A stretch of DNA of 64,000 bases from a virus. Under the pieces are notes generated by a model. The model saw only the letters and a program-made list of their open reading frames with translations. It was not told where the DNA came from and made no database searches. The translations under genes were made by a program, and so were the position numbers. Shown in pieces: positions 19,210 to 58,172 of the stretch (position 1 is its first letter; each line of letters starts with the position of its first letter). The stretch lies in IMG/VR virus record IMGVR_UViG_3300037483_000361, positions 32,881 through 96,880 of that record; one strand, given 5' to 3'.

Positions 19210-20553
19210 TTAGACTACAAAATTGGTTTGCGACTCAAAGGGAGCTTTCTTAGACCCAGCTACCTTAGTTCGAAGAGTTTGAAGAGCGGCCACCACAGCA
19301 GGAGACAGCGGCCCAATACCAATAGTTGGTAGTGTGTGCGACGTAGCGTTCTTCAAATGTGCATCAATAAACTCCAAAAGAAATGCACGAAGGTCTTCGC
19401 CGCGAACAAGTGGTTGCGCTTCATTATCCAAACTTCCAATGAAAATTTTTGGTGCTACAATTGCGTAAGTATCATTGCTTCGTTCAATCGTCTTTCCCGT
19501 TACTTCGGAAGTTTTGCTTGCGCCTACCTTCAATAAGTAATCAGCACCTACAGTTATGAGGTACTTTTGGCCAATTTCTATTTCACGATTAACCGCTGCA
19601 TAACTTCTATAATTCTTTTCTGTATCTACAGTATGATCCTGCATTGTACTGAAATGCGTACCAAGAAAAGTGCTCACCAAAAGTTTGTCAGCTCTGGTAT
19701 TAAGAACAATGCGGTCGGAATTAAGAATGATCTGATTGCCATCCAAAGTGCCCGGAGCAGTTGCCGATTTGAAATGAGTTTGACCACGAATTGTGGCGAA
19801 AGTTAGTGGAATCGTTTGATTCGCCACCATCCATATCGATGACCGATCTTCGTTAATATCTTCATCAATCAAACTATATGGACTATCCGTGCTGCGTTGT
19901 GCATTAGGATTCGGGCCACAACGAAGAAGAAGAGTTGGGCTTAATTCTACATCTGGCGTGGAACCTAGTCGAATAGACTGCCCGGTGCGGCCTTCGTAGA
20001 TGATGTCGCCCTCACGAGAGCGGAGGCGGTAGACCGTCGGCTTGTCCTCGAAGTAGGCGCCGAGGCGGTCGCTCTCTTGCTGCTGGTCGTCGCGCACGGG
20101 CGCGCCCGAGTCGGACACACGGGACATTTCAGAAGTTTGCTGCTCAGTGCTCGGCCGAGCCTTGAGACCATCGTTGAGACCGAAGAGCGGCTGCGCGGTG
20201 ACGCGGTTGGACACGTTGAGCCGGCGGGTGTAGTAGAATCGATTCAGCGCTGGCATGACTAAAACGATTTCGTTCAAAAGCGGATAATCTGTGACATTAG
20301 AAGACATCGGAAATGCCCACGTCAAGTTGCTAGCTTGCTCAAACGCATCACTACTCAACATGCGAACCTTCACTGCGCCGACATTGTAACCATCAGTATC
20401 ATAGTCGGGATGTTGATCATTAACAACCACATCAACAACAATTGCTTCTTCTAATTGAAATGTTTCTTGGTATGATGTGCCAAAAGAACCCTGATTAAAC
20501 GGGTTGGCTTGTGTAAACCGGAAAGTATAATTGGCGCGTTTGACTCTGGACAT
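19210..20553 (-). CDS. baseplate hub/spike protein (gp5/VgrG-like)
   Basis: N-terminal OB-like PLLNEIV, EGRTGQSIRLG, beta-helix-like C-terminus. Confidence 0.6.
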   Translation of the reverse strand: MSRVKRANYTFRFTQANPFNQGSFGTSYQETFQLEEAIVVDVVVNDQHPDYDTDGYNVGAVKVRMLSSDAFEQASNLTWAFPMSSNVTDYPLLNEIVLVMPALNRFYYTRRLNVSNRVTAQPLFGLNDGLKARPSTEQQTSEMSRVSDSGAPVRDDQQQESDRLGAYFEDKPTVYRLRSREGDIIYEGRTGQSIRLGSTPDVELSPTLLLRCGPNPNAQRSTDSPYSLIDEDINEDRSSIWMVANQTIPLTFATIRGQTHFKSATAPGTLDGNQIILNSDRIVLNTRADKLLVSTFLGTHFSTMQDHTVDTEKNYRSYAAVNREIEIGQKYLITVGADYLLKVGASKTSEVTGKTIERSNDTYAIVAPKIFIGSLDNEAQPLVRGEDLRAFLLEFIDAHLKNATSHTLPTIGIGPLSPAVVAALQTLRTKVAGSKKAPFESQTNFVV

Positions 20554-28595: not shown

Positions 28596-28616
28596 AGTAA
28601 CCTCTTTCGAAAATAG

Positions 28617-28963
28617 TGGAGCTGGCGGCATCGAAGCCGCGTCCAGCAAAAAATACAACCTTGACTTCTCCGTGCGCAGTCACCTGTAAAGGTTTCACGC
28701 TTGTAGAACAAATGACAAATCTACTTTGCGTTATCCATCATCTGCAACAATATGACCGATGGCATGTCACACCGTTAGTCGGTTGTGCTGTCGTCCTAGC
28801 CTTGCTCCACGACTATCAGCTCAGTAGGACGGCTGCTAACGATTAAGCAGCGAGCTTAAGTGGTTCTGCACTTATCAGTTTGACACAGAGATTACGAGAG
28901 GTAGTGTCATCTCTCGGCACGCTTCTCTCAGTTTACTTTAGCTGTCGAATCCAGTTCAGCCCC
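28617..28963 (-). ncRNA. ssrA: tmRNA, tag peptide (A)AEPLKLAA* at 28843..28869
   Basis: 5' GGGGCTGAACTGGATTCGAC, 3' GCGGCTTCGATGCCGCCAGCTCCA with G3:U70; ATAAGT-GCA resume context; LAA stop. Confidence 0.93.
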
Positions 28964-28969
28964 GAGATA

Positions 28970-29425
28970 CTACTCCAACTGTTTGTCTATCATCTTCCAC
29001 AGATTTTCAAACTCACCTTTCTTGTAAAGAATAGACTTAAACGTTGGGTGTTGCTTTCGATACATATTAATCTTTGCTCCTGCCGTGACGTTTGCCAACC
29101 GGTCACACAACTTCACAAACACCGCGGATTTGCTAGCCCGGATGCGTTGGAACGTTGCTTCTTTTGACTCACGATTGGAAACCAAGTCTACGATGTTTGC
29201 AATGTTGGAACCAAATTGCTGTTGAAGTTCTGCTTTGGTGACAGAAGTATCTTCAAGAACATCATGCAACCATGCGGCTGCTTGTTCATCAGTTGAGCCG
29301 CCAAATCGTCGAGCGAGCGTATAGACTTGCGCGAGATGGTACGTATAGGGCGTCCCTACGCCGTATTGTTGGCCGCCGTGTGCTTTGATGGCGAACTTGG
29401 CTGCCTCTTTAATCACATCGTTCAT
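28970..29425 (-). CDS. small alarmone (ppGpp) hydrolase-like HD protein
   Basis: AHGGQ..PY..HL, AAWLHDVLEDT, VKLCDRLAN. Confidence 0.8.
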   Translation of the reverse strand: MNDVIKEAAKFAIKAHGGQQYGVGTPYTYHLAQVYTLARRFGGSTDEQAAAWLHDVLEDTSVTKAELQQQFGSNIANIVDLVSNRESKEATFQRIRASKSAVFVKLCDRLANVTAGAKINMYRKQHPTFKSILYKKGEFENLWKMIDKQLE

Positions 29426-30187: not shown

Positions 30188-30229
30188 ACTTTCTCCCTAC
30201 GACATGCATGTCGCAGCGGAGTCCATCAG

Positions 30230-30313
30230 AGGAAGCAGTGGGACTCGAACCCACAAGACCTTGCGGTCATACTTGCTTTCGAGGCAAGCTCCTAATCCAG
30301 CCGGGTTACTTCC
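30230..30313 (-). tRNA. tRNA-Ser(CGA)
   Basis: long variable arm, loop CTCGAAA. Confidence 0.88.
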
Positions 30314-30965
30314 GTTCAATTGCTAATCCGTTTCTTCTGACTCCTTTGCGTGACCAATGTTCATCATCTTCTTCAAGCACCTTGATGAATCCAGGCTTCA
30401 CGATCTTCCCGCGAAAGTATCCATGCTTTGCGTACCGCTTGACCACAACACCCTCGGCGAGAGCGCCATAAGCGGACTTGACCGGAACGATACTGTGAAG
30501 CTCATCCGCGGTGAACGCTCCACGGGCGACGAGCGGAACCATATGAAAGCCGTGCTCCTGGCAAAACTCTGCTCGTTCGTTGTAATTCAACCATGATCCA
30601 TTATCCCGGATGTCAAATACGAGAAAGTACTCGGGAAGGCGGTCATAGACGATGTGATGAACGGCATATAGCAATTCACCATAAATCAAATATCCCCCCG
30701 GGACACTCATGATGCGGTCATAGGCGACTGTGTTTGCCCAATTGTAGAAGTAGTCAAACTGCTCGTGGACAGATGGGCCAACTAACGAGTTTCGCTTTTG
30801 GAGTGAGAATCCCTTAGAGTGACGAATGATGCCAGTATTGGAACCATCCATCTTCTCTTCGACAACCACTTCGCCGGCCAACAGTCGCTTGAACGTTGTG
30901 TTGTCCAAGTTGTATTTGCTGGTCACTGGAAAGACGTGATATGTCTTTTCATATTTTACGAACAT
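30306..30965 (-). CDS. ATP-dependent RNA ligase (Rnl2-like nucleotidyltransferase domain)
   Basis: EEKMDGSN (KxDG), YGEL, FLVFDI, EGVVVK, GKIV. Confidence 0.85.
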   Translation of the reverse strand: MFVKYEKTYHVFPVTSKYNLDNTTFKRLLAGEVVVEEKMDGSNTGIIRHSKGFSLQKRNSLVGPSVHEQFDYFYNWANTVAYDRIMSVPGGYLIYGELLYAVHHIVYDRLPEYFLVFDIRDNGSWLNYNERAEFCQEHGFHMVPLVARGAFTADELHSIVPVKSAYGALAEGVVVKRYAKHGYFRGKIVKPGFIKVLEEDDEHWSRKGVRRNGLAIERK

Positions 30966-31532: not shown

Positions 31533-31982
31533 CTAAATATGAATCAGCGTCACACCAGCTTCACGGTACAACGATTCTGCCAACTGCATGTCATCCATCC
31601 AACGAGCCATGAATGAGTTTGCCGGATCAAACACAGGCGATACAACCGTTGAAATGCCCGCTTGGATGACATGAACAGCACATCGTGAACAACTTTGCCC
31701 CGGCCAATTGTAGAGCGTGTAACCGTCTAGACGTTCTCGTGCATTCAAGATTGCGTTCATTTCACTATGAATGACTCGCTTATACTTCTCATCCCGGTTA
31801 TTGAGAAACTCGGGTGTGTCCGCAATCTTGCGTGGGAATCCATTGAATCCCACCGATGCTATCGTTTTGTCAGGACGGACAATCACCCCACCAGTTTTCG
31901 TTGAGGGGTCCTTTGAAGCAGTAGCTACATGTGCTGCTAATTGTAAATACCACACATGCCACCAATTTGGATCACGATGCAT
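31533..31982 (-). CDS. dCMP deaminase
   Basis: SKDPSTK, GFNGFP, HSEMNA, CSRC. Confidence 0.9.
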   Translation of the reverse strand: MHRDPNWWHVWYLQLAAHVATASKDPSTKTGGVIVRPDKTIASVGFNGFPRKIADTPEFLNNRDEKYKRVIHSEMNAILNARERLDGYTLYNWPGQSCSRCAVHVIQAGISTVVSPVFDPANSFMARWMDDMQLAESLYREAGVTLIHI

Positions 31983-33812: not shown

Positions 33813-33814
33813 AG

Positions 33815-33888
33815 TATCCCCGGAGGGATTCGAACCCCCAACCCCGAGCTTCGTAGGCTCGTGCTCTATCCAGTTGAGCTACGGAGAT
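33815..33888 (-). tRNA. tRNA-Arg(ACG)
   Basis: loop CTACGAA. Confidence 0.9.
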
Positions 33889-33889
33889 A

Positions 33890-34835
33890 TGAAGGGCTGA
33901 GACTACACCCTTTTCCAGTGCCACCTTTGTCAGATTATCCTACAGTGTCCCCACCATAGGTTCCCGACGTATCCACCCCTCCACGAGAGGTCTGACACCA
34001 AGACTGCTTTTGTTAAAGCGGTAGCGATTCCGCTGTCGCGACAGGCGCGCTCGACGTTTCGAATTCCGTCAGTCTTGCGGACTGTAAATGGGCGCTAACC
34101 CAAACGTGCATTTTCACATCAACGGTGCATCTCTCTTGGGGAGAGATTCCCGCCTCTGTTGTCCCGAAGGACCAGAGGATTAAGCCTCTTTTCCTCCCGT
34201 CACCGAGTCGGTCTTTCCATTTTTGGTGCTTAGCGTAGGAGTTGAACCTACAACCATTAGTTTAGCATACTAGTGCTCTACCATTGAGCTAGATAAGCGA
34301 CTTACCCGTGAAGTGCCGACTCTGTAGTTGCCAATCTCTTTTGGAGATCAGAATGCCACACTTCACTGCTGACTTTCGTTGTCACTACTCATCCAGACTT
34401 CAAGAGACATAGGCCAATTAACTCCGCTTGCTAGTGGTCCAGCGAGGACCGGCGGAATTGACCCTTCCCTATGATCATACTATCGAGCCCTTGTGATACC
34501 ACACTCGGACCAAACAATAACACTCCTTGCTAATCTACCGTCGCGTAGGGGTATATAGGGAGTCCAGCACCACCTGTCAATCTTCTCCTACGGCCGTTCC
34601 CGTTACCCTTAAGGGCCATTCACGGCGGTTACATAGAAGTTTTTCCCCTAACTACGCTTCCGGCCTATCTCCAACACTCGCGTGCTGAAGCTGTGGCCTC
34701 GCGGCCACAAAGGCGGAGCTTGCTTGGATGAACCGACCGGAATCGGCGCGGGTTGGTAAGCCTCACCGCTTTACACGTCTTGCGACGTGCTGTTCTTTTC
34801 CCCGAAGGGACGGGGCGCCAAACCGCCCCGTAAAC
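33890..34835 (-). ncRNA. giant ornate ncRNA, GOLLD-like, with embedded tRNA
   Basis: ~945 nt without a credible ORF; many GNRA/UUCG hairpins on minus strand; own promoter. Confidence 0.6.
34224..34298 (-). tRNA. atypical tRNA (GCT anticodon, short variable loop, encoded CCA) inside large ncRNA
   Basis: canonical D/T arms, loop ATGCTAA, stem mismatches. Confidence 0.6.
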
Positions 34836-34896: not shown

Positions 34897-35445
34897 CTAG
34901 AGAGTCAATAACACTTTAGCGATGTTTTTGCTATCATCGATGCCGCGGTGAGCGGTTCCGTCAAACGGGATACCAAGATGTTCAACCGCCTTGCCGAGAC
35001 CACAACTGAATCCGTGCTTCCAACAAAACAGAGACTTCACATTCAAGTGATTGTTGTTGAACGGATTTGCTACCTGCTCACGAAGGCATTGCCGAAGGAT
35101 GATGTCTCGATCATAACAGCCCCAGCTTGCCCACATGTTCCGGTCACATCGATATTGCTTCTCTAAAAGTTCGAGTGCCTTCCTAAACGAATAGCCGTGT
35201 TCATCGACATACGCAGGCGTGAGCGTCGTTAATGCCGTACAGAACGGGCTAATCGCCGACGTAGTAGGTCGAACGATAATAGCTCGCGACTCAACAATCG
35301 TTTTCTTGTCTAGTTCGATAACTGTCAAACCAAACTCGATGATTTCGGAGTCACGCTTCTGCTGATCGGTGAAATTGCCCTGAGCGTCATGCTCCCAGCA
35401 TGTTGCTTCAACGTCAATGACCAAACAAATTTTTGGAGTGCTCAT
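34897..35445 (-). CDS. DEDDh 3'-5' exonuclease (ERI-1/KapD-like)
   Basis: IDVEATC, EIIEFG, WG.YD, HRGIDD. Confidence 0.88.
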   Translation of the reverse strand: MSTPKICLVIDVEATCWEHDAQGNFTDQQKRDSEIIEFGLTVIELDKKTIVESRAIIVRPTTSAISPFCTALTTLTPAYVDEHGYSFRKALELLEKQYRCDRNMWASWGCYDRDIILRQCLREQVANPFNNNHLNVKSLFCWKHGFSCGLGKAVEHLGIPFDGTAHRGIDDSKNIAKVLLTL

Positions 35446-35961: not shown

Positions 35962-36357
35962 TTAATCATGCGACTTCAACGCCTGATGGCGTGCCTCTAT
36001 CATTGGTCCAATGTCGGCCATAATCTGAGAATACGATGACGTGAAGCCGCTTTTATGATCCTTGACTCGATTATCTGGCTCATGATACGTGCGGATGCAC
36101 TCATTAGAGATGACGTGCTCCTTCCGTTCTTGAGCCTTGACATGCGAGACGATCTTATCTGCAAGACGACGAAAGGCGATCTTGCGATTCTGTCCTTGAC
36201 TTCGTGTCTCACGACATTCAGCAAACAATCCCGTGTCAAGATGGGTGATGCGAACGCCACTATCCGATTTGTTCTGATGCTGACCGCCGGGGCCGCCAGA
36301 ACGAAATGTGTCGATTCGAAAGTCTTTGCGTCGTGCTTGAAATATGACTTGTTTCAT
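35962..36357 (-). CDS. class I release-factor-like GGQ peptidyl-tRNA hydrolase (ArfB-like, no codon-recognition domain)
   Basis: RSGGPGGQHQNK, VRITH, RSQGQNR, IRTYH..NRVKDH. Confidence 0.85.
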   Translation of the reverse strand: MKQVIFQARRKDFRIDTFRSGGPGGQHQNKSDSGVRITHLDTGLFAECRETRSQGQNRKIAFRRLADKIVSHVKAQERKEHVISNECIRTYHEPDNRVKDHKSGFTSSYSQIMADIGPMIEARHQALKSHD

Positions 36358-44697: not shown

Positions 44698-44955
44698 TCA
44701 AATCCTGACGGGCTTACGTGTAAACTCGTCAAAGTGAAGGGACACGGCCGGAATCAACTGGTCAATAGTATCATCAGCTTTCTGCCCAAGCTTGATGCGA
44801 GGGTCTTGTAGAAAAGCCGCCAGAAACGTCGGCGTATCCGTTCCCGATGGAAGCAACTTTTCAATCCGATCCAATCGCACCTTGATCCAAGGTTTGCCAT
44901 AACGGCGGCGATTCTGAATCATCGCCTTGATTACATCGTCAATGAGGGTTTTCAT
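44698..44955 (-). CDS. hypothetical protein
   Basis: ORF. Confidence 0.55.
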   Translation of the reverse strand: MKTLIDDVIKAMIQNRRRYGKPWIKVRLDRIEKLLPSGTDTPTFLAAFLQDPRIKLGQKADDTIDQLIPAVSLHFDEFTRKPVRI

Positions 44956-45373
44956 GATGAAACTTCTCCACAGCCTTCAAGGCTCTCAATAACCAGTTGT
45001 CATTCTTGTGTGAGTCCAGCGTTGCATCGTAGAACGGAACCACAAATGCTCCATGTCCACTCTTCTGAACATGTGCAACCAGCGCCTCCATGTCATCGAT
45101 ATAAAACTTCGGCGACTCTTGTATCACCGGCGGTTCTGACTTGTCTGCATATCCGAAAACATACTGATCGAGATTGACTTGTGCATTAAGTGCATACGTC
45201 AAATGAGTCGAAACCATGTTGATCTTGCATTCAGCGTATTGAGCTCCGCCGGCGGACCATATAATGATCTGATACCCTGCGGCATAGAGCCGTTGAAGTA
45301 GCTCGATAACATGCGGTCGCGGGTTATCGTTTTGGTCGATGAGCGTTCCATCGACATCTATGAACACGAACAC
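44939..45373 (-). CDS. HAD-superfamily phosphatase
   Basis: FIDVDGTL, IWSAGG, YIDD; GTG start after tRNA. Confidence 0.8.
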   Translation of the reverse strand: MFVFIDVDGTLIDQNDNPRPHVIELLQRLYAAGYQIIIWSAGGAQYAECKINMVSTHLTYALNAQVNLDQYVFGYADKSEPPVIQESPKFYIDDMEALVAHVQKSGHGAFVVPFYDATLDSHKNDNWLLRALKAVEKFHHENPH

Positions 45374-45390
45374 AATTGAACCTTTCGTAA

Positions 45391-45463
45391 TAGCCCATAG
45401 GGGAATTGAACCCCTCTTTTCAGATTGAGAATCTGATGTCCTGAACCGATAGACGAATGAGCC
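45391..45463 (-). tRNA. tRNA-Glu(CTC)
   Basis: loop TTCTCAA. Confidence 0.9.
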
Positions 45464-45464
45464 G

Positions 45465-45790
45465 AGGATGTGGCCCCACACCGCGCGTGCGAACTTATCG
45501 GAAGGTACCGAACGAAATACCTTCACCACTAGAGTTACGGCCTTACGACCGTCATTAGGTTCTACCTAGGAGCGTGGTATTTTGTACTTCCCCACAGCAC
45601 CGATGGTGGCCCACTGTCGGAGATTCTCTGTCCATTCCTGTGGGAACATTGGACAGGCTACTCCGTAGGCGACCGTCGCTTTCCACGATGCTAGATAGAA
45701 CCAAGATGGCGGGAGTCCAGCCGTCAGACTGTTCAGGGCTTGCAGGACTCGAACCCACATGTTGCCATTTGACGGACCCTTAACTCCCAT
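45465..45790 (-). ncRNA. unnamed multi-domain RNA with a T-loop hairpin
   Basis: GTGGG-TTCGAGT-CCTGC; 12-bp GGTTCTATCTAG/CTAGGTAGAACC. Confidence 0.45.
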
Positions 45791-45796
45791 AACAAG

Positions 45797-45870
45797 TCGG
45801 GCGGAATGGTGATGGCCCATTATAGCCGGCTCTCATGGCCGGAGTCCTCACTCCTTAGACGACTGCCCGA
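45797..45870 (-). pseudogene. tRNA-like cloverleaf with aberrant T loop (GCCATCA) and anticodon loop CATGAGA
   Basis: Glu/Asp-type D arm, four stems. Confidence 0.5.
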
Positions 45871-45872
45871 TA

Positions 45873-45947
45873 TAGCCCCGCGGGGTGTCGATCCCCGTTC
45901 TCCACCTTGAAAGAGTGGCATCCTAGCCAAACGTAGACGATGGGGCC
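45873..45947 (-). tRNA. tRNA-Glu(TTC)
   Basis: loop CTTTCAA. Confidence 0.85.
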
Positions 45948-46570
45948 AAACATGCTGGTATACGTATTTTATTAGACATTTGCATCTCAATATTAGACCC
46001 AACCGCCTTCAATTTCAATGGGTCATTTTCATTGAGATAGAACTTTCCTTTAATCTCAACCCAATAATCGTGTTCTGGTAGGTAAAAATCGGGCCAATAC
46101 TTCCTTGACTTTCCATATTTGTCTCGGTATGGAAAAAACTTCGTAGTATTCTTCTCCCACCGTATTCCATGCAAATCCATCAGCTCGGCAAACGTTCTTT
46201 CTGCACCGCAATCCATCCAAGACCCTTTGTAGAAACTTCGAATCTTTCTAGTAGAGTTGGGCCTGTATCCGCCTTGGCCCGGACGTTTTCGGGCGCATGC
46301 ATCCGAACAATATTTCCTATGACGTTTCCAATACAAAACCATAAACTCTACATTGCAAGTTGGGCATATTTTGGATACAACTGGATTAGATGTTTTGTGG
46401 TAGATTGCTCCCCCCACTTTATAACCTGCCATTCGGCTGGATAGTCTACTCTTATGGCGCGCAGACCACGTTCTACTATTAGCACATGACCGAGAACAAA
46501 ATCGACCACTACTATATTTTCCACAAGGTGCTGAAATCTCTATACCACATTTTTCACACTTCATTGACAA
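45923..46570 (-). CDS. Zn-finger + PD-(D/E)XK endonuclease (homing-type)
   Basis: FCSRSC, YCS..C, YWPDFYL..WVEIKG. Confidence 0.75.
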   Translation of the reverse strand: MSMKCEKCGIEISAPCGKYSSGRFCSRSCANSRTWSARHKSRLSSRMAGYKVGGAIYHKTSNPVVSKICPTCNVEFMVLYWKRHRKYCSDACARKRPGQGGYRPNSTRKIRSFYKGSWMDCGAERTFAELMDLHGIRWEKNTTKFFPYRDKYGKSRKYWPDFYLPEHDYWVEIKGKFYLNENDPLKLKAVGSNIEMQMSNKIRIPACLAPSSTFG

Positions 46571-46624
46571 ATCCTCCTACTAAATAAGTAGTCGAACCCT
46601 TGTCTAAAAGCGTGATTTTCTACA

Positions 46625-46698
46625 CGGGTCGTAGGGGAATCGAACCCCTCTGGTGTCCTCCGTGACAGGGAGGCGGCCGGCCTTTGGCCCAACGACCC
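46625..46698 (-). tRNA. tRNA-Asp(GTC)
   Basis: G73, loop CTGTCAC. Confidence 0.85.
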
Positions 46699-46776
46699 AA
46701 CTTGGCGGGGAAGGATGTCAGTTCATCCTCCGAAGAAAATCAGGCGCTCGCCAGAACGCTTCCCCAAGTTTTACTA

Positions 46777-46849
46777 CGGAACCACGGGGAATTGAACCCC
46801 AATCCCCTACGTGACGAGCAGGTATCCTAAACCATTGAACGATGGTTCC
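46777..46849 (-). tRNA. tRNA-Asp(GTC)
   Basis: G73, loop TCGTCAC (C33). Confidence 0.88.
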
Positions 46850-46850
46850 A

Positions 46851-46933
46851 GTAAGGGAGTGTCCTTCCAGTTAGACGACCGTTCCTCGAAAGAAACGGGG
46901 TAGACTCGAACCACCATCTCCCCCCGCATTTAC
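46851..46933 (-). ncRNA. circularly permuted tRNA-like RNA (T arm - UUCG-capped acceptor - D arm)
   Basis: GGTGG-TTCGAGT-CTACC, CCGTTTCT-TTCG-AGGAACGG, TCGTCTAACTGGAAGGAC. Confidence 0.7.
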
Positions 46934-47036
46934 CCCTATGTGAGCTCCACCGAATTGCTTCGGCTTGTAGGCGTGAGCAGGTAGACTTTCCATTAACGCC
47001 TCGTTGTATTGATCCTCACACTAACCATGATGTGAA

Positions 47037-47288
47037 GGATGCACTGAAATGGGTTTTATTTCCCGTACGGAGCCGCACCCCATACGTTCTTTATCGGCGT
47101 GTAGATTGAGTCCCCTTGCGACCGAACAACTGGCCTTGAGGCTTTCTAGAATGCCTCTAGCAAGGGCGTCGTGTAATGGTCCGCACGTTTGAGACTCTCG
47201 CCCCGCGGTACACAGTTTCACTTGCAGCCTAGCTCGCTACTCCTGTCCCATCGCCCCACTTCAACTCGCCATCAGTTTTTATGCATCC
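47037..47288 (-). ncRNA. unnamed ~250-nt structured RNA
   Basis: GGATGCA/TGCATCC termini, internal hairpins, no credible ORF. Confidence 0.4.
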
Positions 47289-47290
47289 AG

Positions 47291-47365
47291 TCGGGAAGGT
47301 GGGATTTGAACCCACGATCTCCTGCTCCCAAGGCAGACGCGCTGGCCAGGCTACGCTACTTCCCG
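47291..47365 (-). tRNA. tRNA-Pro(TGG)
   Basis: loop CTTGGGA. Confidence 0.9.
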
Positions 47366-47366
47366 A

Positions 47367-47528
47367 TTACTTCCACGTCTTGCGAATCTCTTCGGCAACA
47401 AAGTTCGGGTTGCCGGGGATCGTGCAAGCACATTTGCTAGGTTCATACGTTCCATTCATCACAAACTGCCAATGGCTGATCTTGGCGCCTAAGTGACACT
47501 CACAAGAACATTCTGTTTTCTTATCCAT
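47367..47528 (-). CDS. small Cys-rich protein
   Basis: CSCECH..CAC. Confidence 0.45.
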   Translation of the reverse strand: MDKKTECSCECHLGAKISHWQFVMNGTYEPSKCACTIPGNPNFVAEEIRKTWK

Positions 47529-47800: not shown

Positions 47801-48190
47801 CTACTTCTTATACCGACGGCGATTCACTTTGAAGAGTTCAAACGTGCTGAGCAACTTGTCTGACTCTTCACTCATGAGCGGACCAACACCGATGGCGGTC
47901 ACGATCTTCTTGCCGGTGAAGTCGGGCGGAAACACATGACCTTCATCCACCACCACGTAGTACGGAAGGCCAAACGCCCGAAATTTTTGTTCGAGCCGGC
48001 GAATTTGCCGAAGTGACGCCTTCAAAACGATCCGCGTTCCCATCGAACCGTTCGGATGATACAGCGTCAGTCGTTCCGGGCCAATGCGTTGTGCTTCCAA
48101 GGTCGTATGAACGAACGCGTGTCCGGCTTGCGCTGCGGCTTTTCCAGCATCCATAAAGATGTCGGATCGCAACACTGCATACATTTTCAT
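47801..48190 (-). CDS. peptidyl-tRNA hydrolase type II (Pth2)
   Basis: GKAAAQAGHA, IVLK, VVDEG, TAIGVGP. Confidence 0.85.
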   Translation of the reverse strand: MKMYAVLRSDIFMDAGKAAAQAGHAFVHTTLEAQRIGPERLTLYHPNGSMGTRIVLKASLRQIRRLEQKFRAFGLPYYVVVDEGHVFPPDFTGKKIVTAIGVGPLMSEESDKLLSTFELFKVNRRRYKK

Positions 48191-48360: not shown

Positions 48361-48436
48361 TCTAGGTGGCTGGATTCGAACCAGCGTGACCCTGCTTCCA
48401 AAGCAGGTAAGGTAAACCGGACTCCTTAACACCTAG
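48361..48436 (-). tRNA. tRNA-Pro(TGG)
   Basis: loop TTTGGAA (A37). Confidence 0.85.
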
Positions 48437-48906
48437 CTATTAAGATGCTGAATGATCCTATCAGCGATCTCTGCGGTCAATCCCCCATGTTCAAAACTGG
48501 TCTGGAAGAATGATCCATCTTCTAAATCCGCATCTTCTTCATCATCGATGACCGCAATTTTTTCTATCTTTTGGTCGTTCCACCCAAAGGTCAACGGCCA
48601 TTCCCTTTGGAGCCAATCAAGAATCTCCACACGACGAGGCGTGTCTAGTGAGAGTGACTTTACAACCGTTTTTCCAATTATGGAACCACTTGCAATGACT
48701 TTGTTTAGGTGCGCACGGCCCTCATCAGAAAGTCGCCACGTACTGGAAAGAACGATCTTTGCTCCGGTTATGTGTAGAATACGGTTGAGCTGAAAGCAAC
48801 AATCCGTATCCAACACCCAACACGTCAGCGACCCATCGGGAAGTTTCCATCCCGGAGTATGGTCGTGATTGAGCACGCCGTCAACATCAAGAAAGATCAG
48901 TTTCAC
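48433..48906 (-). CDS. HAD phosphatase, Swiss-Army-knife RNA-repair type
   Basis: IFLDVDGVLN, IVLSSTWR, EI.DWL, AVIDD, GLT. Confidence 0.8.
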   Translation of the reverse strand: MKLIFLDVDGVLNHDHTPGWKLPDGSLTCWVLDTDCCFQLNRILHITGAKIVLSSTWRLSDEGRAHLNKVIASGSIIGKTVVKSLSLDTPRRVEILDWLQREWPLTFGWNDQKIEKIAVIDDEEDADLEDGSFFQTSFEHGGLTAEIADRIIQHLNS

Positions 48907-49031: not shown

Positions 49032-49045
49032 TTCGTTGAATGACT

Positions 49046-49118
49046 GACCGATGGGTGGGAGTCGAACCCAACGTTACTGGTGCGAACCCGGCCGTCCTGT
49101 CCACTAGACGACTATCCC
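49046..49118 (-). pseudogene. degenerate tRNA
   Basis: intact D and T arms, mismatched acceptor and anticodon stems. Confidence 0.55.
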
Positions 49119-49195
49119 ACTTCTTTTCCATTGTTGAACCGACAACTTCCAAGAAGCACGTGCAAAGGTGGTTCAACCTTTGCCGATCAGTCAAA

Positions 49196-56751: not shown

Positions 56752-57522
56752 TTATATATCTACCAGTGCGGCGCGGAGCAAGTGCAGCATGATCCCTTCT
56801 GCTTTTTGAGTATTCGGTTCCGCAGGAAGTGGTGATCGTTCCTTGGCCGATTCCATACGAGCTCGGAGACGTTCTGCCTCGGCCTTGACCTGCTCAAGCG
56901 TCCACTTGCCCTGCTTGACGGCGAGCAACTCGTCTGCGTCAGGTCTGAGCACGGCCATCACACCGGTCTCCACGAACTCCGTACCCATGCGATACAGGCG
57001 GAGTAGGTGAGACGCGTTCTTCGTGTCGTACCCGAACTGCGTGACGAGCTTGCGGCGCTTCTCGCCCATGTACCCACTGGTCACGTTGAGCGTCATGCGT
57101 CGCAACTGGTCGTAGGCGTAACCCGAGAACGAATGGTACGCCCGAAGAGACGAAAAAATATCACGGTTGTTCTTAAGTTGCGTAAACGCAGGCGTCGTCA
57201 GCTCTGGATCATAATCCTCATCCCGATACCACAACGTTTCCAGTACGCTAGGGTTGTTTTTGAGGAGTAGCCCAACATACTTGCGAAGTGAGTAGACCAC
57301 TACGTCTACGGCGTCATCCTGAAACGTCCAGTTATCGAACGTGCTCAGTCCGAGCAACTTCTCAATCGGCGGAATGACCACGACAAAAAAGTCATCATCG
57401 CTGACGCTCGTGGCCGTTCCATACACCCGCGACCCGCGCCGGCAGGCCATGATGGCCGAACGCTCAAGGTCAAACCCCAACCGGTCATTAAACATAGCAA
57501 TAACATGATTTGGAAATTTCAT
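56752..57522 (-). CDS. Pol-beta-superfamily nucleotidyltransferase (RlaP/YcgL-like)
   Basis: RGSRVYGT...SDDD, LLKNNPSVLE, YDTKNASHLLRL. Confidence 0.8.
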   Translation of the reverse strand: MKFPNHVIAMFNDRLGFDLERSAIMACRRGSRVYGTATSVSDDDFFVVVIPPIEKLLGLSTFDNWTFQDDAVDVVVYSLRKYVGLLLKNNPSVLETLWYRDEDYDPELTTPAFTQLKNNRDIFSSLRAYHSFSGYAYDQLRRMTLNVTSGYMGEKRRKLVTQFGYDTKNASHLLRLYRMGTEFVETGVMAVLRPDADELLAVKQGKWTLEQVKAEAERLRARMESAKERSPLPAEPNTQKAEGIMLHLLRAALVDI

Positions 57523-58172
57523 TGTAGTGTCCACGGGTCTAATCCTGCTGTTTGAGGGCGGGGCGTCCATGCATCAAAGACTTTTTGTAAGTCTCTCACA
57601 GCTTTTTTGTAGGGCATGATGTTCAGTCCCCATTGTGCAAGTAAATTGGGGGATTCAAGTAAATACGCATGTGCTTCATCTACCCATGTCACTGCTCCGT
57701 ATGCGTATTTCTCTAAAATCTGAAAGATGGGAAGTAATGGACACTTTCCCAAAATGGATAGTACTTCGGCTTCGTAATCGTGCTCTGTCCCGAATAATGC
57801 ATGTGCCAATTCATGCTTCAGTGTGCGAAGATTCCCATTGACTGTTGCAACGAGATATCCTTCATAAGGAACATGATTGGTTACCTGAAGCAATGTGCGT
57901 TCACTCTTGGTGAGTGGATTGAATCGCCCCGCTGCGAATGGTACCATAATGCGTGCAGGAATGTTATACCCCTCCCAATCTCGATAGTAGGTGAACGCAC
58001 CATAGGTCTTGCGATACCATGCAGCATACTGACGAATGCTAAACACTTGACCGACAAACCGAGGGCTTTCATAATATTCTTGAAACCGGCAAAACATTTT
58101 TCCCATTTCGATTTCTGAGTTAAAATCAATCCACGAAATTTTTGGCGTCACGTTTATCAGTTTGAATGCCAT
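57519..58172 (-). CDS. HExxH hypothetical protein
   Basis: RFQEYYESP, LKHELAHA. Confidence 0.6.
   Translation of the reverse strand: MAFKLINVTPKISWIDFNSEIEMGKMFCRFQEYYESPRFVGQVFSIRQYAAWYRKTYGAFTYYRDWEGYNIPARIMVPFAAGRFNPLTKSERTLLQVTNHVPYEGYLVATVNGNLRTLKHELAHALFGTEHDYEAEVLSILGKCPLLPIFQILEKYAYGAVTWVDEAHAYLLESPNLLAQWGLNIMPYKKAVRDLQKVFDAWTPRPQTAGLDPWTLQ

What the first reader, a model, noticed from the sequence alone, without database searches (positions are those of the whole stretch)
46851..46933. Circularly permuted tRNA mimic with a UUCG-sealed acceptor stem
The order is anticodon-stem 3' strand, variable loop AGAT, canonical T arm, 8-bp acceptor stem capped by UUCG, Asp/Glu-type D arm, then anticodon-stem 5' strand. 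This gives a complete tRNA elbow with no CCA end and no anticodon loop. The topology matches the tRNA-like module of bacterial YrlA Y RNAs, but no Ro-binding bulged-C helix or Ro gene is visible. It could be an uncleavable decoy for tRNA-targeting toxins, or a permuted pre-tRNA needing the phage ligase. Its 3' end would be set by RNase P cleavage of the adjacent tRNA-Asp.
Basis: partly seen in the sequence, partly recalled or inferred. Interest (0 to 1): 0.75.

Follow-up and report, generated by a model that had tools for sequence, protein, structure and literature searches.

The report
Sealed back-to-front tRNA mimic in phage
Inside a phage's 52-gene tRNA cluster lies an ~80-base element with every part of a tRNA except the anticodon loop and a free end, wired back to front like the tRNA-shaped half of bacterial Y RNAs; it has no Ro protein gene or Ro-binding stem, and I found no relatives to show it is conserved.

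Summary
On the minus strand at 46924-46850 the order is closing-stem strand, short variable region, canonical T arm, 8-bp hairpin capped by UUCG, UC, Glu-type D arm, A, closing-stem strand. The element ends 1 nt before tRNA-Asp(GUC). Rejoining the two halves around any 7-nt loop gives a tRNA that ARAGORN accepts. A strict scan finds this one site in the window and none in 400 shuffles.

The design is that of the tRNA-like module of YrlA Y RNAs, but the element fails the YrlA membership tests:
- Rfam scores it 19.3 bits against a cut-off of 69, no better than tandem-tRNA junctions.
- It has no long basal stem, and the GNCGAA(N)G motif is absent from the stem.
- Its T and D stem sequences differ from the YrlA consensus.
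- No TROVE/Ro60, vWA or RtcB gene lies in the 96.9-kb record, which is about 54% complete.

The neighbours are RNA-repair and ribosome-rescue genes: PTH2, HAD-SAK, RNA ligase, RlaP, an RF-1-domain protein and tmRNA.

No homologue was found in any reachable collection, so conservation and function are unproven. This scan has already reported similar Ro-less permuted tRNA mimics in other phages.

Best reading (about 0.4): a Ro-independent, tRNA-shaped ligand released by tRNA processing. Relic and 3'-domain readings remain open.

The parts
46916..46925 (-). G-run GGGGGG followed by AGAU. This is the 5' strand of the closing stem (equivalent to the anticodon-stem 3' strand) plus the variable region. 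The register is ambiguous.
46899..46915 (-). T arm GGUGG-UUCGAGU-CUACC, with G53:C61, U54, U55, C56, R57 and A58.
46879..46898 (-). Acceptor-like hairpin: 8 bp (7 bp plus A-1:U73) closed by UUCG (46890-46887). It has no free ends and no CCA.
   Evidence: Pair probabilities are 0.82-0.97 in the 440-nt context.
46861..46878 (-). Linker UC (positions 8-9) and D arm GUCU-AACUGGAA-GGAC, of the tRNA-Glu type.
46850..46860 (-). A26 equivalent, the closing-stem 3' strand CUCCC(UU), and a short tail ending 1 nt before tRNA-Asp.
46777..46849 (-). tRNA-Asp(GUC). Its 5' processing by RNase P would create the 3' end of the element (inferred).
46926..47289 (-). ORF-poor spacer of about 360 nt between tRNA-Pro(UGG) and the module. 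It may form one RNA with the module. GCAU (47284-47281) pairs with AUGC (46929-46926) in the MFE fold.
   Evidence: no promoter or terminator match inside it. It has no Rfam hit and no paralogue or homologue.
47290..47365 (-). tRNA-Pro(UGG). Its 3' processing would create the 5' end of the spacer RNA (inferred).
47801..48190 (-). PTH2 peptidyl-tRNA hydrolase gene, the nearest upstream protein gene. It was used as the anchor for the comparison with other phages.

Best explanation
The element is a tRNA-derived, circularly permuted copy of a complete tRNA body of the Glu/Asp type. It has the same design as the effector (tRNA-like) half of YrlA Y RNAs, but it stands on only a 5-7-bp closing stem, with no Ro60-binding module.

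It is most likely transcribed with the tRNA array. Its 3' end would be made by RNase P cutting at tRNA-Asp. Its 5' end would be either the 3'-processing site of tRNA-Pro (giving an RNA of about 440 nt) or an unknown cut.

Folded into an L shape with an intact D/T elbow, but with no anticodon loop and no CCA end, it can neither decode nor be charged. It would therefore act as a tRNA-shaped ligand. It could be a cofactor, tether or competitive decoy for a protein that recognises the tRNA elbow or body, among the phage's own RNA-repair and ribosome-rescue enzymes or among host factors.

Shown: sequence, fold, tRNA completeness, genomic context. Inferred: transcription, the processing sites, stability, and any binding partner.
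For: - The fold and all tRNA core positions are present.
- The Rfam YrlA model aligns over its full length in the right register.
- The element is not a fresh copy of any tRNA in the array. The best match is the adjacent tRNA-Asp, at only 74% and 70% identity of the two halves, yet every stem is intact. Against that tRNA, four stem positions differ on both sides while keeping the pair (my reading of the sequences).
- Orphan T arms are rare in this array, 3 of 51.
- No promoter-like or terminator-like site separates it from the flanking tRNAs, apart from a terminator-pattern match that is the T arm itself.
- The context is RNA-repair and rescue genes: PTH2, HAD_SAK_2, RNA ligase PF09414, RlaP, HD, RNase_T, an RF-1-domain protein and tmRNA.
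- The same permuted design recurs near PTH2 in other phages. L011 and L051 have it beside TROVE genes. L020 has two copies between tRNA-Leu genes in a 347.5-kb record, 90% complete, with no TROVE hit.
- L011 has the order PTH2, tRNA-Pro(CGG), Y-like RNA, Ro60. The window has PTH2, tRNA-Pro(CGG), tRNA-Pro(UGG), module.
- Published work shows that YrlA modules fold like tRNA and are expected to bind an elbow-recognising factor (10.1101/312249; PMC4201824).
Against: - No homologue of this element was found anywhere I could search, so there is no covariation or conservation.
- There is no expression data.
- No partner protein is identified.
- The most stable register leaves a 2-nt variable region, which is too short for a canonical tRNA core.
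- The Rfam score is no better than that of tandem-tRNA junctions.
- The record is only about 54% complete.
Confidence: 0.4

Rival explanations
1. Non-functional relic. Two tandem copies of one tRNA with a 5-nt spacer were truncated. This left the 3' half of copy 1 and the 5' half of copy 2, which pair automatically. The element is tolerated because it sits in a processed spacer.
For: - Tandem same-acceptor tRNAs do give this pattern; 3 such false positives turned up in my scan. Chen et al. warn about dimeric tRNAs (PMC4201824).
- The phage has duplicated tRNAs, including two tRNA-Asp genes next door.
- No conservation could be shown.
- The UUCG loop has a U-A closing pair, so it need not have been selected.
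Against: - All 22 stem pairs and all core positions are intact, although the best match to any tRNA of the array is only about 72% identical.
- Making it needs two precise truncations at the anticodon loops.
- The flank closes into a 7-bp stem.
- tRNA debris is otherwise rare in this array.
Confidence: 0.25
2. The module is the 3' domain of a single spacer RNA of about 440 nt (47289-46850), released by tRNA 3' and 5' processing. Its compact tRNA-like fold mainly caps the 3' end against exonucleases, or guides processing, while the upstream 360 nt carry the function.
For: - No ORF over 66 aa and no promoter or terminator match lie in the gap.
- In the MFE fold the upstream 360 nt close on themselves (GCAU/AUGC) right beside the module.
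- The module keeps its fold in that context.
- The window also holds GOLLD with a nested tRNA.
Against: - The upstream domain's fold is not significant (z = -1.3).
- It has no Rfam match.
- It has no paralogue or homologue.
- A simple hairpin would suffice as a cap.
Confidence: 0.18
3. A genuine Y RNA that binds a Ro60/Rsr protein encoded in the missing half of the phage genome or by the host.
For: - The record is about 54% complete.
- Ro60 genes occur in 83 GenBank phages and in 3 of 42 PTH2 loci.
- L011 shows a PTH2, tRNA-Pro, Y RNA, Ro60 cassette.
- At the position the Rfam model aligns to the motif, the element reads GGUAAAUG against the consensus GGCGAAUG.
Against: - Y RNAs are normally adjacent to Ro60, but here the neighbours are tRNAs and a nuclease-like ORF.
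- There is no long basal stem, and the outer helix has probability about 0.
- The motif is not met in the stem. The only exact GNCGAAG (46964-46958) lies in a GNRA hairpin, and one such match is expected by chance about once in five in 440 nt (my estimate).
- T and D stems and the linker differ from the YrlA consensus (10.1101/312249).
Confidence: 0.1
4. A permuted pre-tRNA. The ends would be joined by the phage RNA ligase to create an anticodon loop, and the sealed acceptor would be opened by RNase P, yielding a working tRNA.
For: - A phage RNA ligase, RlaP and HAD phosphatases are present.
- The 3' tail UUACU plus the upstream GC could formally make a 7-nt loop, and ARAGORN accepts such a construct.
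Against: - No anticodon loop is encoded.
- The formal product would have anticodon ACU on a body without the long variable arm of tRNA-Ser.
- No circularisation pathway for tRNA is known in bacteria or phages (my knowledge).
- The 5' cut site is undefined.
Confidence: 0.02

Closest known systems
YrlA (Y RNA-like A; Rfam RF02553; Chen et al. 2014 PMC4201824; Wang et al. 2018 bioRxiv 10.1101/312249)
   Same: The order is the same: variable region, T arm, closed acceptor-like stem-loop, two-nucleotide linker, D arm, all on a stem that replaces the anticodon arm. All tRNA core positions are present. There is no CCA end and no anticodon loop. YrlA genes are sometimes encoded next to tRNAs and RNA ligases.
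   Different: - It scores 19.3 bits against a gathering score of 69.
- It has no long Ro60-binding stem.
- GNCGAA(N)G is not met in the stem.
- The linker is UC, not UA.
- The D stem is GUCU/GGAC and the T stem GGUGG/CUACC, not the conserved YrlA stems.
- No Ro60 gene lies nearby or anywhere in the 96.9-kb record.
Mycobacterium smegmatis YrlA (PMC4201824)
   Same: Its acceptor-like stem has full tRNA length (7 bp; 7+1 here). That length is the stated determinant for RNase P cleavage and later CCA addition.
   Different: That RNA is bound by Rsr and encoded beside rsr. Cleavage of the present element has not been tested.
Phage Ro60 with Y-like RNAs (Thermus phage phiLo Yrl1/Yrl2, PMC12135203; loci L011 and L051 here)
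   Same: They are phage-encoded tRNA-like or Y-like RNAs in regions rich in tRNA and RNA-repair genes. L011 shares the order PTH2, tRNA-Pro(CGG), module.
   Different: Those RNAs sit directly 5' of a TROVE+vWA gene and have long stems. Here there is none.
Ro-less permuted modules in phage tRNA arrays
   Same: They are sealed, permuted tRNA bodies between tRNA genes in a phage with no detectable TROVE gene.
   Different: The L020 copies carry a conserved two-stranded handle of about 25 nt per side and lie 42-43 nt from the next tRNA. The present element has no handle and abuts the tRNA. There is no sequence homology between them.
b7a-tRNA / Ro-independent tRNA-like partners of RNA ligases (Burroughs and Aravind 2016, as cited in 10.1101/312249)
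   Same: This is the idea of a tRNA-shaped RNA serving RNA-repair enzymes without Ro60.
   Different: b7a-tRNA resembles an ordinary, unpermuted tRNA and goes with a Band-7 protein. The Band-7 protein was not looked for here.
Spacer-derived RNAs of tRNA operons and RNase P-defined ends (E. coli 3'ETS-leuZ; MALAT1/mascRNA; from my own knowledge, the latter also mentioned in 10.1101/312249)
   Same: The RNA's ends are set by tRNA-processing enzymes.
   Different: Those RNAs are not permuted tRNA bodies.

Membership tests
YrlA (Rfam RF02553) | Covariance-model score at or above the gathering score of 69 bits. | tested here: not met
   It scores 19.3 bits, E = 0.34. Tandem-tRNA junctions score 17-30 bits. 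A Ro-adjacent phage YrlA-like RNA (L011) scores 43.4 bits.
YrlA (Rfam RF02553) | Encoded adjacent to a Ro60/Rsr (TROVE) gene. | tested here: not met
   The 96.9-kb record has no TROVE or VWA_2 hit, and tblastn with two phage Ro60 proteins finds nothing. Caveat: the record is about 54% complete.
YrlA (Rfam RF02553) | GNCGAAN0-1G motif in the 5' strand of the basal stem (PMC4201824). | tested here: not met
   The aligned position reads GGUAAAUG, matching 4 of 6 specified bases. The only exact match, GCCGAAG at 46964-46958, lies in a separate GNRA hairpin, and a match is expected by chance about once in five in 440 nt.
YrlA (Rfam RF02553) | tRNA-like domain in the order V, T, closed acceptor-like stem, D, with conserved tertiary nucleotides. 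| tested here: met
YrlA (Rfam RF02553) | Conserved T-stem and D-stem sequences and a UA linker (10.1101/312249). | tested here: not met
   The Rfam consensus is GCGGG...CCCGC, UA, GCUC...GAGC. Here the sequences are GGUGG...CUACC, UC, GUCU...GGAC.
YrlA (Rfam RF02553) | Binding by Ro60/Rsr. | not testable with these tools
   This needs immunoprecipitation or a gel-shift assay.
Phage Y-like RNAs with the 'helix plus ACNGCAA' handle (earlier notes of this scan) | Conserved handle motif ACNGCAA at the base of the stem. | tested here: not met
   There is no ACNGCAA on the minus strand between 46700 and 47400.
Canonical tRNA (Rfam RF00005) | Contiguous cloverleaf with an anticodon loop and free acceptor ends. 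| tested here: not met
   Neither ARAGORN nor the Rfam tRNA model calls a tRNA at 46850-46938. It is recognised only after the halves are re-permuted in silico around an added loop.
Permuted tRNA genes (Cyanidioschyzon merolae type; my knowledge) | All tRNA parts, including the anticodon loop, are encoded, and the acceptor linker is removable. | tested here: not met
   The anticodon loop is absent; the closing stem runs straight into the flanks.

The most novel reading that the evidence does not exclude
The element is a free-standing, Ro-independent phage Y-like RNA. tRNA processing would excise it from the array, and RNase P might open its full-length acceptor hairpin between 46886 and 46885, as in M. 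smegmatis YrlA. It would then work as a tRNA-Glu-shaped cofactor or unconsumable decoy for the phage's ligase/RlaP/HAD repair set, or against a host factor that recognises the tRNA body. That would be a new class of phage counter-defence RNA.
Probability: 0.15. Interest if true: 0.7.

Novelty: new variant of a known kind. Interest (0 to 1): 0.4.

Why it matters
If it is functional, the tRNA-shaped half of Y RNAs can work without Ro60, as a stand-alone module cut out of a phage tRNA operon. That would link tRNA arrays, RNA-repair enzymes and tRNA mimicry in the contest between phages and host tRNA-targeting defences.

It would also give a compact, testable substrate of about 80 nt for asking what binds the tRNA elbow in such systems.

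As it stands, it is one more orphan example of a design this scan has met repeatedly. Its value lies mainly in adding to that series and in the clean, fully tRNA-complete architecture.

Tried and rejected
Homologue searches that failed:
- blastn of 46400-47400 against GenBank phages hit only tRNA-Pro.
- IUPAC patterns of the T-loop-to-D-loop core gave only chance matches: viral contigs, JGI metagenomes, GTDB genomes.
- A 23-mer of the adjacent tRNA-Asp in viral contigs found nothing.
- blastn and nhmmer of the 440-nt spacer against 42 PTH2-bearing phage loci found nothing.
- A self-search of the genome found no paralogue.
- The closest PTH2 relatives (P0003 at 77%, P0004 at 70%) lie on Logan/ENA contigs.

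Readings considered and rejected:
- Tandem tRNA junction: no tRNA is callable on either side of the hairpin, and the hairpin is closed by 4 nt.
- A second permuted module in the upstream 360 nt, as in the 'double mimic' RNA noted earlier in this scan: none found.
- ACNGCAA handle family: motif absent.

Not tested or uninformative:
- DUF7873 as a partner protein could not be tested, because its accession was unknown to me.
- The search of G001 and G002 with the L011 Ro60 protein was uninformative. It missed even the known TROVE gene of G002.

Full report
**Setting.** The window is bases 32881-96880 of a 96,880-bp IMG/VR phage record that CheckV rates about 54% complete. Between 28.6 and 56.2 kb, all on the minus strand, ARAGORN finds 51 tRNAs and a tmRNA. 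Rfam adds a GOLLD RNA and one more weak tRNA. The proteins interleaved with them are RNA-repair and ribosome-rescue types:
- PTH2 (47801-48190)
- HAD_SAK_2 (48433-48906)
- a HAD/PNKP-like phosphatase (44939-45529)
- RNA ligase PF09414 (30306-30965)
- RlaP (56752-57570)
- HD (28970-29425)
- RNase_T (34897-35445)
- an RF-1-domain protein (35962-36357)
- a cytidine/adenosine-deaminase-fold protein (31533-31982)

This is the jumbo-phage RNA-repair set described by Iyer et al. 2021 (PMC7824862). A baseplate-wedge match points to a T4-like myovirus.

**The observation.** The element lies on the minus strand. In order it has:
- a run of six G, then AGAU
- the T arm GGUGG-UUCGAGU-CUACC
- an 8-bp hairpin CCGUUUCU-UUCG-AGGAACGG
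- UC
- the D arm GUCU-AACUGGAA-GGAC
- A, CUCCC, then UUACU, which ends 1 nt before tRNA-Asp(GUC) at 46849

RNAfold returns this four-way junction both for the element alone and within the whole 441-nt spacer. In tRNA numbering, U8, A14, A15:U48, G18 G19, A21, G53:C61, U54, U55, C56 and A58 are all in place.

Three checks back this up. When the two halves are rejoined in silico around any 7-nt loop, ARAGORN calls a canonical 75-nt tRNA. A strict scanner that demands perfect stems and these positions finds one site in the real window and none in 400 shuffles. A looser scanner finds about 0.06 per shuffled window.

- Nearest-neighbour thermodynamics favour the register GGGAG/CUCCC extended by two G-U pairs (probability 0.95). 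That leaves only AU as the variable region. The proposed outer helix GGUAA/UUACU has about 0. The G-run allows slippage, so tertiary contacts could select the 4-nt register. This is unproven.
- The UUCG loop is closed by U-A, not C-G.

**Origin.** The D arm with its flanks (UC-GUCU...GGAC-A) is that of both tRNA-Glu genes of the window. The acceptor strand GGAAC and the xGAU variable region resemble the adjacent tRNA-Asp. No tRNA of the array is closer than 74% and 70% to the two halves. The element is therefore not a recent copy, yet every stem pair is intact. Only three perfect T arms on this strand lie outside ARAGORN's tRNA/tmRNA calls or the Rfam-only tRNA. They are the candidate, a missed tRNA-Ser(CGA), and one further odd tRNA-like element. 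The array is thus not littered with debris.

**Is it a YrlA?** The Rfam YrlA model aligns over its full length with T arm, closed stem and D arm in register, but scores only 19.3 bits against a gathering score of 69. Junctions of tandem tRNAs score 17-30 bits, the false positive Chen et al. warned of. The published family features fare as follows:
- Adjacency to Ro60: not met. The record has no TROVE, vWA or RtcB, and tblastn with two phage Ro60 proteins finds nothing.
- GNCGAAN0-1G motif in the basal stem: not met. The aligned position reads GGUAAAUG. The single exact match, at 46964-46958, sits in an unrelated GNRA hairpin and is within chance.
- Conserved T and D stems and a UA linker: not met (10.1101/312249).
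- The tRNA-like topology and tertiary nucleotides: met.

So it works like the effector half of a YrlA, but it is not a member of the family as defined. It also lacks the ACNGCAA handle that earlier agents of this scan found on other phage Y-like RNAs.

**Comparative evidence.** I found no homologue of the element or of the 440-nt spacer:
- GenBank phages
- IMG/VR
- JGI metagenomes
- GTDB genomes
- 42 PTH2-bearing phage loci
- the phage itself

Conservation and covariation therefore cannot be judged.

**The same design elsewhere.** My scanner found six non-tRNA modules in 795 kb:
- the candidate
- one in L011, and two in L051, each directly 5' of a TROVE+vWA (Ro60) gene
- two paralogous copies in L020, between tRNA-Leu genes, in a 347.5-kb, 90%-complete record with no TROVE hit

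The L020 copies carry a conserved double-stranded handle; the candidate does not. L011 has the order PTH2, tRNA-Pro(CGG), Y-like RNA, Ro60. The window has PTH2, tRNA-Pro(CGG), tRNA-Pro(UGG), 360 nt, module, tRNA-Asp. This is compatible with descent from such a cassette with loss or relocation of Ro60. That is an inference only.

**Mechanism.** No promoter-like site lies in the spacer. The only terminator-pattern match on this strand inside it is the T arm itself. The flanking tRNAs do not encode CCA. The simplest reading is co-transcription with the array. tRNA 3' processing at tRNA-Pro and RNase P at tRNA-Asp would release a 440-nt RNA whose last 75-85 nt are the module, or a shorter species after a further cut.

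The product has a tRNA elbow and an acceptor/T stack but no anticodon loop or CCA. It can only act by being bound. I put a Ro-independent tRNA-shaped ligand (cofactor, tether or decoy) at about 0.4.

M. smegmatis YrlA, which has a 7-bp acceptor-like stem, is cut by RNase P and gains CCA (PMC4201824). This element has 7+1 bp.

The rivals are:
- a relic of truncated tandem tRNAs (0.25)
- a structural 3' domain of a longer spacer RNA (0.18)
- a true Y RNA for a Ro60 encoded elsewhere (0.10)
- a permuted pre-tRNA needing ligation (0.02)

**Novelty and score.** YrlA RNAs, including phage ones beside Ro60, are published (PMC4201824; PMC12135203). Ro-independent tRNA-like partners of RNA ligases were proposed in 2016, as cited in 10.1101/312249. 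Searches of the held literature gave no description of sealed, permuted tRNA bodies inside phage tRNA arrays without Ro60. This scan has noted such elements several times on other DNA.

I rate it a new variant of a known kind, with interest 0.4. The object is clean and real, but it is an orphan without evidence of conservation, expression or a partner.

Noticed in passing
window 30227-30314 (-): A tRNA-Ser(CGA) with a long variable arm that ARAGORN and Rfam (gathering threshold) did not list. It has a 7-bp acceptor GGAAGUA/UGCUUCC, anticodon loop CUCGAAA and a perfect T arm. The stop codon of the RNA ligase ORF (30306) lies inside its 5' end.
   Followed up: partly
window 33894-34366 (-): GOLLD RNA (159.4 bits, gathering score 150) with a tRNA-Ser(GCU)-like gene (34224-34298) nested in its 5' part.
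   Followed up: no
window 45728-45947 (-) and 49045-49120 (-): These are further non-canonical tRNA-like elements carrying the same Glu-type D arm (UCGUCUA...GGAC). One is a weak Rfam-only tRNA (45873-45947, 32.7 bits). Another is a cloverleaf-like fold at 45797-45872 with a non-canonical T loop. There is also an orphan perfect T arm at 45742-45758, and one more element near 49111.
   Followed up: partly
window 31533-31982 (-) and 33814-33888 (-): A deaminase-fold protein (dCMP_cyt_deam_1 / MafB19-deam) is encoded in the array that also holds tRNA-Arg(ACG). It may be a phage TadA-like A34-to-I editing enzyme.
   Followed up: no
window 35962-36357 (-), 28614-28963 (-), 47801-48190 (-): A full ribosome-rescue kit sits in one array: a short RF-1-domain (ArfB/ICT1-like) protein, tmRNA (tag AEPLKLAA) and PTH2.
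   Followed up: no
L020:19662-19804 and 19888-20028 (+): Two paralogous RNAs of about 140 nt lie between tRNA-Leu genes of a 347.5-kb phage with no TROVE hit. Each has a permuted tRNA body on a conserved handle (5' CUCGGGUCGUU.GAUUGGGUUAU, 3' AAACCAGUC.GCCUUUUUAUCCGAG). By my memory of the human Y1 sequence, the handle loosely recalls the metazoan Y RNA stem.
   Followed up: partly
L010:9890-9964, L011:10355-10430, L027:9859-9932, L029:9766-9842 (also L020:8385-8462): A tRNA with anticodon CUA (amber-reading; ARAGORN labels it 'Pyl') lies within about 170 nt of the PTH2 gene in four of the six PTH2 loci I ran ARAGORN on: just upstream in L010, L027 and L029, just downstream in L011. It is 1.5 kb upstream in L020 and absent from L051. 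In the window, tRNA-Lys(UUU) lies just upstream of PTH2.
   Followed up: no
L011:11100-12763 (+): A phage cassette in the order PTH2, tRNA(CUA), tRNA-Pro(CGG), ORF, terminator, promoter, Y-like RNA of about 330 nt (YrlA model 43.4 bits), TROVE+vWA gene. The Y-like RNA is much longer than the Rfam YrlA model.
   Followed up: partly
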